DNA of 64,000 nucleotides from Pedobacter sp. (lineage in GTDB: Bacteria; Bacteroidota; Bacteroidia; Sphingobacteriales; Sphingobacteriaceae). The position numbers and the translations under genes are program-made. The notes under the pieces were generated by a model. That model was not told the origin of the DNA. It saw nothing but the letters and a program-made list of their open reading frames with translations, and searched no databases. Of this stretch, positions 503 to 741 are shown in pieces (within the stretch, counting starts at the first letter, position 1; each line of letters opens with the position of its first letter). The stretch lies in contig NZ_OZ245727.1 in assembly GCF_965227205.1 (NCBI RefSeq), positions 608,863 to 672,862 on the forward strand. The letters are read 5' to 3'.

Positions 503-741
503 CATCCGGCATTAGAAGATTTGGCAGCAAAGACTAATTAAATTTTGTTGCATTACCACTGCATAACCGATCGAAGCAAGAAATCCTACGAGTGTAGTAG
601 AATCTTAAAATACATCACAACCATTCACACAGCTTAGGATTTCGGATAAAATTTATTAAGTATTTGCAACAAAGGTTCGAAAGCCTTGATTTTTGCTCCA
701 CTTTTAATCAAGAAAAAGTGGACAGCCTGTCTGGCTAAGAC
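503..741 (+). repeat. Family C dispersed structured element (H-type pseudoknot + long hairpin), copy C1
   Basis: CTTGATT(685-691) pairs with loop AATCAAG(706-712) of hairpin CCACTTTT/AAAAGTGG; ATCCGGC 5' end; homologous to copies at 50.3k, 53.4k, 56.7k, 58.1k. Confidence 0.7.

What the first reader, a model, noticed from the sequence alone, without database searches (positions are those of the whole stretch)
503..741. Family C: dispersed element with a covarying H-type pseudoknot, five copies
Seen: copies at 503-741, about 50335-50587, 53390-53660, 56665-56916 and 58110-58240 share a U-rich/A-rich hairpin whose loop pairs with a neighbouring segment. The pairing covaries: CTTGAT/ATCAAG (C1, C4), GGCAA/TTGCC (C5), CTTGG/CTAAG (C2, C3). 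The last pairing is a G-U wobble on only one strand, which points to an RNA-level structure on + for C1 and on - for the others. A long variable hairpin closed by GGC/GCC and a conserved ATCCGGC follow. Inference: a structured ncRNA or non-autonomous mobile element. From memory it resembles the Flavo-1 RNA motif of Bacteroidota, whose function is unknown; this was not verified.
Basis: partly seen in the sequence, partly recalled or inferred. Interest (0 to 1): 0.65.

Follow-up and report, generated by a model that had tools for sequence, protein, structure and literature searches.

The report
Pedobacter repeat with triple-helix pseudoknot
The five copies are real members of an uncatalogued repeat present about a hundred or more times per Pedobacter genome, and its conserved fold includes a pseudoknot that looks like a small triple helix; it is not the Flavo-1 RNA, and its function is still unknown.

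Summary
A profile HMM and a covariance model of the pseudoknot core find exactly five copies in the window: 680-747+, 50331-50401-, 53381-53440-, 56667-56739- and 58104-58170-. The same models find 216 copies in 60 Pedobacter-type loci.

The family has no Rfam match. True Flavo-1 hits lie elsewhere in the window, so the Flavo-1 idea is refuted.

The fold is well supported. Of 22 core pairs, 91.5% of cells pair, against 79% in shuffles and 39-58% when partners are slid. The pseudoknot occurs in at least six complementary versions, for example CTTGAT/ATCAAG, GGCAG/CTGTC, GGCAA/TTGCC and GGTGT/ACATC.

New result: the U-rich linker mirrors the A-rich hairpin strand in parallel register (UGUUUG/AUAAAG, UUUUGG/AAAAGG). 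This points to a major-groove triple helix.

The element behaves as a non-autonomous mosaic repeat:
- roughly 100 or more copies per genome;
- intergenic, with no orientation bias relative to flanking genes;
- arrays of long and short subtypes in alternating orientation;
- gain and loss between species, and shuffling of modules between copies;
- no transposase found nearby.

It appears in unstranded transcriptome contigs. Whether the fold acts as RNA or as single-stranded DNA is unresolved, and its function is inferred, not shown.

The parts
374..754 (+). Copy C1 (short subtype) with its leader, forming a 381-nt block that is absent at the orthologous site of a related Pedobacter. The block starts TAGTTATT and ends AATAACTA(T).
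   Evidence: Contigs of run X6 join 372/373 directly to 755. Core hit 680-747, 74.2 bits.
504..685 (+). C1: conserved ATCCGGC (504-510) and the long variable hairpin closed by GGC...GCC.
   Evidence: Sequence. Homologous rod helices covary in the long subtype.
685..722 (+). C1 pseudoknot module: 5' strand CTTGAT 685-690, U-rich linker 691-696, hairpin 697-705/714-722, loop 706-713 containing ATCAAG.
729..741 (+). C1 3' hairpin GTCT-GGCTA-AGAC. The loop GGCYA is shared by the family.
   Evidence: The stem covaries with C5 (GTCC/GGAC).
50331..50612 (-). Copy C2 (long subtype): leader, 5' box, ATCCGGC 50548-50554, rod, pseudoknot module and 3' hairpin 50334-50351.
   Evidence: Core hit 70.6 bits. 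Full-length alignment.
50359..50396 (-). C2 pseudoknot module: CTTGG 50392-50396, linker 50385-50391, hairpin 50375-50384/50359-50368, loop GCTAAG 50369-50374.
   Evidence: Word depth about 2216 against about 17 single-copy in the same genome.
53381..53650 (-). Copy C3 (long subtype, insertion variant): ATCCGGC 53623-53629, CTTGG 53499-53503, 55-nt insertion 53437-53491, hairpin 53427-53436/53411-53420, loop 53421-53426.
   Evidence: Core hit 38.1 bits. An X6 contig skips 53439-53495. The left junction lies exactly after ...GATTGAGATGACA when compared with Leaf170.
56640..56916 (-). Copy C4 (long subtype): 5' box, ATCCGGC 56886-56892, rod, pseudoknot module and 3' hairpin 56671-56690 with tail. 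It lies between two convergent genes.
   Evidence: Core hit 75.0 bits. Present at the orthologous site in Pedobacter sp. Leaf170 with a different pseudoknot allele. Covered by metatranscriptome contigs.
56696..56734 (-). C4 pseudoknot module: CTTGAT 56729-56734, linker TTTTG 56724-56728, hairpin 56713-56723/56696-56706, loop ATCAAG 56707-56712.
58104..58312 (-). Copy C5 (short subtype): leader AAATCTGCATCC..., degenerate 5' box, ATCCGGC 58231-58237, short rod, pseudoknot module and 3' hairpin 58110-58122. It abuts a truncated DUF1016 gene.
   Evidence: Core hit 58.8 bits. Absent, together with the truncated gene, from Leaf170. Pfam.
58130..58164 (-). C5 pseudoknot module: GGCAA 58160-58164, linker TTTTTG 58154-58159, hairpin 58145-58153/58130-58138, loop GTTGCC 58139-58144.

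Best explanation
Family C is an uncatalogued, Pedobacter-restricted, high-copy intergenic mosaic repeat of about 210-380 nt, with roughly 100 or more copies per genome. It is kept for a specific single-strand fold.

Read 5' to 3' on the element strand, the fold is:
1. A leader of degenerate 14-nt repeats (..CCACCCTGCTAT).
2. ATCC-GGC, a long rod-like hairpin with exchangeable distal modules, then GCC.
3. An H-type pseudoknot, in which the 5-6 nt after GCC pair with the whole 6-nt loop of a U-rich/A-rich hairpin.
4. A 3' hairpin with loop GGCYA.

The U-rich linker between the pseudoknot strand and the hairpin runs parallel to the A-rich strand. It most likely sits in the major groove as U.A-U (and G.G-C) triples, the geometry known from telomerase RNA and SAM-II pseudoknots.

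Shown: the copies, the fold with its covariation, the copy number, the taxonomic range sampled, gain and loss between species, the arrays, module shuffling, and the absence of a nearby transposase.

Inferred: the fold acts in the transcript, as a compact triple-helical knot that resists nucleases or helicases, or serves as a protein-binding platform, on whatever RNA carries it. Also inferred: the element spreads as a non-autonomous unit, by a trans-acting enzyme or by recombination and gene conversion between copies.
For: Copies: exactly 5 in the window and 216 in 60 Pedobacter-type loci. There were none in the chance-match loci from the same scan. The window itself is syntenic with Pedobacter sp. 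Leaf170 and N23S346 at 78-83% identity.

No Rfam family matches.

Core structure:
- 91.5% of cells pair, against 79.1% in shuffles (0/500 reach it) and 39-58% when partners are slid.
- 16 of 22 pairs change on both sides.
- 8 of 9 hairpin pairs are compensatory.

Pseudoknot alleles keep complementarity while every base changes.

Full-length alignment: 28 of 43 predicted pairs have compensatory changes.

Triple-helix signal:
- Linker and A-rich strand agree in parallel register at 0.915 of positions. Shuffling linkers among the 27 alleles reaches this in 0 of 5000 trials.
- Non-U linker positions coincide with non-A stem positions, Fisher p = 3.7e-4.

Copy number: word depth is 1189-2216 over the core against 13-17 for single-copy sequence in the same genome.

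Dynamics:
- The C1 block is absent in a relative.
- C5 and C3 are absent from Leaf170. C4 is orthologous there but carries a swapped pseudoknot allele.
- A different repeat fills the same intergenic slot in N23S346.
- Rod types A and B combine freely with the hairpin alleles, and the same alleles are shared between species.

Transcription: metatranscriptome contigs run through C4, and an isolate transcriptome holds pieces of the element.
Against: - No stranded RNA data, so neither the transcript nor its strand is shown.
- Orientation relative to co-directional flanking genes is random: 19 sense against 17 antisense. This argues against a function that needs read-through in one sense.
- Single-sequence MFE is equal on the two strands: -75.7 against -75.9. 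When the helices predicted on either strand are pooled, A.C mismatches are nearly as common as G.U: 170 against 245.
- With no spacer after the loop strand, a fully formed 6-bp pseudoknot plus a 9-11 bp stem needs kissing-loop-like geometry or fraying of the apical pairs.
- Copies are related by descent, so the shuffle statistics overstate independence.
- The element ends are ragged, and no target-site duplication or mobilising enzyme was found.
Confidence: 0.5

Rival explanations
1. A DNA-level REP/BIME-like element. The hairpins and the loop pairing form in single-stranded DNA of one strand and are recognised by a trans-acting HUH/Y1 transposase (RAYT- or IS200/IS605-like), which copies the element next to other REP-like hairpins.
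For: - Arrays with the two subtypes in alternating orientation, as in BIMEs.
- No orientation bias relative to genes, and a preference for convergent gene ends: 32 against 9.
- Many copies begin right after a REP-like ...GATGACA hairpin, and the C3 junction is exact.
- No target duplication seen.
- G.T wobbles are also tolerated in DNA hairpins.
- No strand difference in MFE.
Against: - The element is 5-10 times longer than REPs.
- The whole 300 nt, not just terminal hairpins, is conserved above the level of neighbouring genes and has 28 compensatory pairs.
- The parallel linker/stem mirror relation is typical of RNA pseudoknot triplexes.
- No Y1 transposase gene appears in 60 loci or in the window. 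Whole genomes were not searched.
Confidence: 0.22
2. A scaffold RNA of a mobile-element system (omega-RNA/HEARO-like, or a template or handle for a reverse transcriptase). The many ORF-less copies are non-autonomous partners of a few protein-coding master copies, and the discrete pseudoknot alleles act as specificity determinants.
For: - A 300-nt conserved fold with a pseudoknot, hundreds of ORF-less copies and lineage-specific bursts.
- Module shuffling compatible with template switching.
- Both 5'- and 3'-truncated copies exist.
Against: - No Rfam HEARO or other omega-RNA hit at E<=10.
- No TnpB, IscB or RT gene next to any of about 220 copies, nor upstream of orphan pseudoknot modules.
- Not found on plasmids, phages or viral contigs.
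- No evident variable guide segment.
Confidence: 0.12
3. A host-beneficial cis element or sRNA gene family (for example an mRNA 3'-end stabiliser or a regulator) that is only secondarily repetitive.
For: - C4 is kept at the same site in a species whose flanking genes are only about 82% identical, with the element body at about 90% identity.
- Sequence conservation across species exceeds that of coding DNA.
- Contigs from RNA libraries cover it.
Against: - Random orientation relative to genes.
- Presence and absence at orthologous sites.
- Tandem and inverted arrays.
- Truncated copies, and a truncated gene at the C5 border.
Confidence: 0.12

Closest known systems
Flavo-1 RNA motif (Rfam RF01705)
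   Same: A Bacteroidota intergenic motif of unknown function with a U-rich/A-rich hairpin. It is multi-copy in this same window and can occupy the same intergenic slots.
   Different: It is a separate family. The Flavo-1 model hits other coordinates and none of the Family C copies, even at E<=10. Flavo-1 is a single interrupted hairpin of 76 model positions. It lacks ATCCGGC, the GGCYA hairpin and the pseudoknot.
BOX elements of Streptococcus pneumoniae, and enterobacterial BIME/REP and ERIC repeats (recalled from general knowledge)
   Same: About 100 or more intergenic copies, a modular mosaic build, stable folds in transcripts, arrays with alternating orientation (BIME), no coding capacity, and a mobilising activity that is unknown or acts in trans.
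   Different: There is no sequence relationship. Family C is longer than REPs and carries a covarying pseudoknot with an apparent triple helix. It is conserved across species more strongly than the neighbouring genes.
Triple-helix H-type pseudoknots (telomerase RNA core, SAM-II and preQ1-II riboswitches) (recalled from general knowledge)
   Same: The topology is 5' strand, U-rich loop 1, stem, loop strand. Loop 1 runs parallel to the purine strand of an A-U-rich stem, as U.A-U major-groove triples require.
   Different: There is no homology and no ligand or reverse-transcriptase context. The whole 6-nt hairpin loop is used, with no loop 3. The structure sits inside a repeat present hundreds of times.
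HEARO / IscB and TnpB omega-RNAs
   Same: Structured RNAs of 200-300 nt with pseudoknots, present as many ORF-less copies in some genomes and tied to mobile elements.
   Different: No covariance-model match and no associated nuclease gene in about 60 loci.

Membership tests
Flavo-1 (RF01705) | Match to the Rfam covariance model at or above the gathering score of 42 bits. | tested here: not met
   No hit overlaps any Family C copy at gathering threshold or at E<=10 / E<=5. Genuine hits of 49-57 bits lie at 14808, 24446, 37659 and 49971.
Flavo-1 (RF01705) | A single long interrupted hairpin with conserved UAGCC...GAU...GGAA...AGC...GGGA boxes. | tested here: not met
   The Family C consensus has ATCCGGC, a rod, a pseudoknot and a GGCYA hairpin instead.
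MITE (IS-derived miniature inverted-repeat element) | Terminal inverted repeats that match a parent IS. | tested here: inconclusive
   Only the C1 block shows 8-nt inverted termini, TAGTTATT...AATAACTA. The ends of other copies are ragged. No parent IS was seen.
MITE (IS-derived miniature inverted-repeat element) | A target-site duplication of fixed length. | tested here: inconclusive
   No clear duplication at the C1 filled/empty comparison. C2 and C3 are bracketed by 54- and 79-nt direct repeats of different sequence. These are themselves repeat modules.
REP/BIME with RAYT | A short (20-40 nt) palindromic unit, with arrays in alternating orientation. | tested here: inconclusive
   Alternating long(+)/short(-) arrays are present, but the units are 210-380 nt with a complex fold.
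REP/BIME with RAYT | A cognate Y1 (RAYT) transposase gene in the genome, often flanked by the repeats. | not tested
   Only the window and about 60 loci of 8 kb were examined and none holds one. Whole genomes were not available.
Omega-RNA / HEARO of IS200/IS605-type elements | A covariance-model match, or adjacency to an iscB or tnpB gene. | tested here: not met
   No Rfam hit. No such ORF next to any copy sampled.
H-type pseudoknot with major-groove triple helix (a structural class, not a homologous family) | Two helices with crossing topology, each supported by covariation. | tested here: met
   The pseudoknot helix pairs in 85.7% of cells, with 3 of 6 pairs changed on both sides. The hairpin pairs in 96.6% of cells, with 8 of 9. 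There are at least six complementary alleles.
H-type pseudoknot with major-groove triple helix (a structural class, not a homologous family) | Loop 1 parallel to the purine strand, with base-specific correspondence. | tested here: met
   Mirror agreement of 0.915, reached by 0 of 5000 shuffles. Registers 0/+1 are clearly the best. Fisher p = 3.7e-4. This is sequence evidence only.
H-type pseudoknot with major-groove triple helix (a structural class, not a homologous family) | Physical formation of the triplex in the RNA. | not testable with these tools
   This needs chemical probing, UV melting, or an NMR or crystal structure.

The most novel reading that the evidence does not exclude
Family C is a new class of self-propagating structured RNA element in bacteria, either a SINE-like retroelement or the scaffold of an RNA-guided mobile-element protein. 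Its triple-helix pseudoknot is the recognition handle. The roughly ten discrete, internally complementary pseudoknot alleles that are shared across species act as specificity determinants.
Probability: 0.15. Interest if true: 0.85.

Novelty: new variant of a known kind. Interest (0 to 1): 0.6.

Why it matters
High-copy intergenic repeats are common in bacteria, but very few have a fold this well supported.

- With more than 200 copies and about ten natural compensatory alleles, this family is a ready-made covariation data set for a pseudoknot. Unusually, it also covers a putative base-triple layer.
- It adds an uncatalogued motif for Rfam-type annotation of Pedobacter genomes, where it breaks assemblies and fills intergenic space.
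- It gives a tractable system for asking whether such repeats are selected as RNA, as single-stranded DNA, or both.
- If the fold proves to be a nuclease-resistant or protein-recruiting RNA module, it could also serve as a compact stability element.

Tried and rejected
- Rfam at gathering and at permissive E-values gave nothing for Family C.
- Raw-read RNA runs X23 and X24, listed under the same species label, gave zero reads even at 80% likeness. No strandedness could be obtained.
- BLAST against plasmids and phages, and a motif scan of viral contigs, found no match.
- Clustering the ORFs around about 220 copies showed only ordinary gene families: hybrid sensor kinases, TonB-dependent receptors and others. 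ORFs upstream of orphan pseudoknot modules are ordinary genes.
- Orientation relative to flanking genes shows no bias.
- Strand assignment from folding energy shows no difference between strands. The G.U against A.C count depends on which strand the structure was predicted on.
- A closing helix between the 5' leader and the 3' tail was considered by eye but is not supported by RNAalifold.
- Clean empty sites for C3 and C5 in Leaf170 could not be obtained. The regions are rearranged beyond a simple insertion.
- Literature searches for Pedobacter repeats found no description.

Full report

Yes. Reading the five places shows the same architecture in each. On the + strand for C1, and on the - strand for C2-C5, the order is:
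- ATCCGGC;
- a long hairpin closed by GGC...GCC;
- a 5-6 nt segment;
- a U-rich linker ending in G;
- a U-rich/A-rich hairpin whose loop is complementary to that 5-6 nt segment;
- (A)GCC;
- a 3' hairpin.

- C1: CTTGAT 685-690 with ATCAAG 707-712.
- C4: 56729-56734 with 56707-56712.
- C5: GGCAA 58160-58164 with TTGCC in 58139-58144.
- C2 and C3: CTTGG with CTAAG, at the coordinates.

A profile HMM of the core finds exactly these five sites in 64 kb, E = 5e-16 to 2.4e-5. A covariance model finds the same five, at 75-38 bits.

**2. It is not Flavo-1.**

Rfam's Flavo-1 model does hit this window, but at other places: 14808-14969+, 24446-24577+, 37659-37814+ and 49971-50069-, plus a sub-threshold copy at 50727-50805+. 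No Rfam family reaches even E = 10 on C1, or E = 5 on the 8.6 kb that holds C2-C5, apart from obvious noise.

**3. The family elsewhere.**

I scanned one genome per species with the 5' box of C2-C4.
- The multi-hit loci are all Pedobacter: sp. Leaf41, CFBP9032, N23S346, Leaf170, R20-19, BMA and MC2016-05, plus P. jejuensis, P. frigidisoli and P. aquatilis. Two Bacteroidota MAGs also carry it.
- The remaining hits are single chance matches in unrelated phyla, and they hold no core.
- The core model finds 216 copies in these 60 loci.
- The window itself is a Pedobacter. It is syntenic with Leaf170 and N23S346 at 78-83% identity.
- In assembly contigs of the same genome (run X1), word depth over the core is 1189-2216, against 13-17 for single-copy DNA. 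That means on the order of a hundred or more copies.
- The family is absent from the plasmid and phage collections and from IMG/VR.
- The paper searches found no description of it.

**4. Anatomy.**

There are two subtypes.
- Long (C2, C3, C4): a leader of 3-4 degenerate 14-nt repeats ending ...GCCACCCTGCTAT-CCGGC. The pseudoknot strand is CTTGAT or a relative. The 3' hairpin is CUUCGGC-GGCYA-GCCGAGG, followed by a GCAAGCCAGCGCAGCGGRAAAA tail.
- Short (C1, C5): pseudoknot strands GGCAG, GGCAA or GGTGT (C1 carries CTTGAT), and 3' hairpin GUCY-GGCYA-RGAC.

In CFBP9032 the two alternate, long(+) then short(-), in arrays with a period of about 570-650 nt. They are interleaved with REP-like ...GATGAC... 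hairpins.

Some copies, C3 included, carry a 55-nt insertion of the same class between the pseudoknot strand and the hairpin.

**5. Is the fold selected?**

On the model-based alignment of 150 cores (112 distinct), results are as follows.

| Measure | Value |
|---|---|
| Cells forming a standard pair | 91.5% |
| Same, after shuffling partners | 79.1% (0 of 500 shuffles reach the observed value) |
| Same, with partners slid 1-3 columns | 39-58% |
| Pairs changed on both sides | 16 of 22 |
| Hairpin pairs that are compensatory | 8 of 9 |
| 3' hairpin pairs that are compensatory | 5 of 7 |
| Pseudoknot pairs that are compensatory | 3 of 6, despite a one-base register shift between subtypes |

Listed by allele, the pseudoknot pairings are: CTTGAT/ATCAAG, CTTGG/CCAAG, CTTGAC/GTTAAG, CTTGG/CTAAG, GGCAG/CTGTC, GGCAAC/GTTGCC and GGTGT/ACATC. 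Complementarity is kept while every base changes.

In arrays, adjacent long and short units carry different alleles. Each loop matches its own upstream strand, so the pairing is intramolecular.

For 88 full-length long copies, RNAalifold predicts the rod plus the hairpins, and 28 of 43 pairs show compensatory changes. Rod subfamilies A and B differ by coordinated AU to GC swaps at four to five pairs.

The statistics are inflated by shared descent of copies. The number of distinct alleles makes the conclusion robust all the same.

**6. A triple-helix layer (new).**

Across 27 distinct alleles, the linker between the pseudoknot strand and the hairpin mirrors the A-rich 3' strand of the hairpin in parallel register.

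| Linker | A-rich strand, same register |
|---|---|
| UUUUG | AAAAG |
| UUUUUUG | AAAAAAG |
| UGUUUG | AUAAAG |
| UUUUGG | AAAAGG |
| CUUUG | CAAAG |
| GUUUUG | CAAAAG |

- Three base pairs of stem always remain below the final G.
- Non-U linker positions coincide with non-A stem positions, Fisher p = 3.7e-4.
- Agreement is 0.915. Shuffling linkers among alleles reaches this in 0 of 5000 trials. Registers 0/+1 are clearly better than -2 to +4.

A third strand that runs parallel to the purine strand of an A-U-rich stem is what a major-groove U.A-U triplex requires. That geometry is established for telomerase RNA, SAM-II and preQ1-II pseudoknots (general knowledge). The linker is not antiparallel-complementary to the stem, so an alternative Watson-Crick helix does not explain the relation.

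This is sequence inference only. One steric caveat stands: no spacer follows the loop strand. The knot therefore needs kissing-loop-like geometry or fraying of the apical pairs.

**7. How the element behaves.**

All copies are intergenic.
- In 60 loci they lie mostly between convergent genes (32, against 9 between divergent genes). Relative to co-directional flanking genes, the long subtype is sense 19 times and antisense 17 times.
- Gain and loss is evident. Contigs of a related Pedobacter (run X6) join window 372/373 directly to 755. They lack a 381-nt block made of C1 plus a leader, and that block starts TAGTTATT and ends AATAACTA.
- Leaf170 lacks C5 together with the adjacent truncated DUF1016 gene. 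It also lacks C3, whose left junction falls exactly after a REP-like ...GATTGAGATGACA.
- Where the window has a Flavo-1 copy, N23S346 has two Family C copies.
- C4 is present at the orthologous site in Leaf170. Its body is about 90% identical while the flanking genes are about 82% identical. The whole pseudoknot-plus-3'-hairpin module has been exchanged for another allele, the one carried by the window's C2 and C3.
- Rod types A and B combine freely with the hairpin alleles, and identical alleles occur in different species. Modules are therefore shuffled by recombination or gene conversion.
- No transposase, reverse transcriptase or nuclease gene recurs near copies or upstream of orphan pseudoknot modules.

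**8. RNA or DNA?**

- RNA libraries do contain the element. Four soil metatranscriptomes have contigs running from the epimerase gene through C4. An isolate transcriptome holds pieces of the element at high depth. Contigs carry no strand information, and DNA carry-over cannot be excluded.
- The only raw-read RNA runs offered did not contain this organism.
- In the pseudoknot helix of long copies, all wobble-type exceptions are G.U on the proposed strand and none is A.C (12 cells). The consensus fold is better on that strand, -35.3 with 43 pairs against -26.8 with 34 pairs.
- Single-sequence energies are equal on the two strands. Pooling the helices predicted on either strand gives G.U 245 against A.C 170.
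- The strand call is therefore suggestive, not proven. A single-stranded DNA form remains possible.

**9. Best reading, and what it is like.**

The element is best filed as a new, genus-restricted family of structured mosaic intergenic repeats. In genomic behaviour it resembles BOX, BIME and ERIC elements. In local structure it resembles triple-helix pseudoknots.

I favour an RNA-level role for the fold: a compact knot that resists nucleases or helicases, or binds a protein. Three things support this:
- conservation extends over the whole 300 nt;
- conservation exceeds that of neighbouring genes;
- the linker/stem relation is typical of RNA pseudoknots.

The random orientation and the BIME-like arrays keep a single-stranded-DNA/transposase mechanism as a serious rival. 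An omega-RNA-like or retroelement role is not excluded but has no positive evidence. Function is inferred throughout.

**10. Verdict.**

- It is a new variant of a known kind. It is of moderate to good interest, mainly for the well-supported pseudoknot with an apparent base-triple layer inside a repeat present hundreds of times.

Noticed in passing
window 14808-14969(+), 24446-24577(+), 37659-37814(+), 49971-50069(-), 50727-50805(+, below threshold): Genuine Flavo-1 (RF01705) copies, three of them with 63-88 nt inserted in the terminal loop. Flavo-1 behaves here as another multi-copy intergenic repeat. Two inverted copies bracket the region that holds C2.
   Followed up: partly
window 53204-53282 and 53668-53746; 50244-50297 and 50644-50697: C3 is bracketed by a 79-nt direct repeat (96% identical) and C2 by a 54-nt direct repeat (87% identical) of unrelated sequence. 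Leaf170 has a single copy of the 79-nt unit at the orthologous site. It is not resolved whether the duplication arose with the insertion or reflects independent repeat modules.
   Followed up: partly
window 58316-58639(-): A 107-aa ORF that holds only the N-terminal domain of a DUF1016/YhcG-type protein. It is cut off exactly at the 5' border of C5. Both the ORF and C5 are absent from Pedobacter sp. Leaf170.
   Followed up: yes
window 41655-42336: Three tandem units of about 235-245 nt (75-94% identical). They contain CCCTCTCC...GGAGAGGG hairpins and form another repeat family.
   Followed up: no
window 13283-13366; also 56924-56956 and 19439-19463: Runs of the heptamer AATGACC, or related ACCAATGAAC units. 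One run lies directly beside the 5' end of C4.
   Followed up: no
window 53652-53680, 390-425; loci L035, L108, L114 and others: Short REP-like hairpins ending in ...GATGAC(A), for example TCTCCGCTAGGATTGAGATGACA and CGGCAGGTGATGACACCAGCCG. They very often lie immediately 5' or 3' of Family C copies, so they may be an insertion target or a co-travelling module.
   Followed up: partly
window 53828-55614: About 1.8 kb, including an erythromycin-esterase-family gene (54265-55566), is absent from the syntenic region of Pedobacter sp. Leaf170.
   Followed up: no
loci L019, L048, L082, L106, L111, L114, L115 (CFBP9032): A recurrent junction. The first ~70 nt of a long copy end at ...CAACCAC and are followed directly by the leader TTATAAATCTAAGTC... 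of a complete copy. The remainder of the first copy does not follow. This is a propagated rearranged unit rather than a nested insertion.
   Followed up: partly
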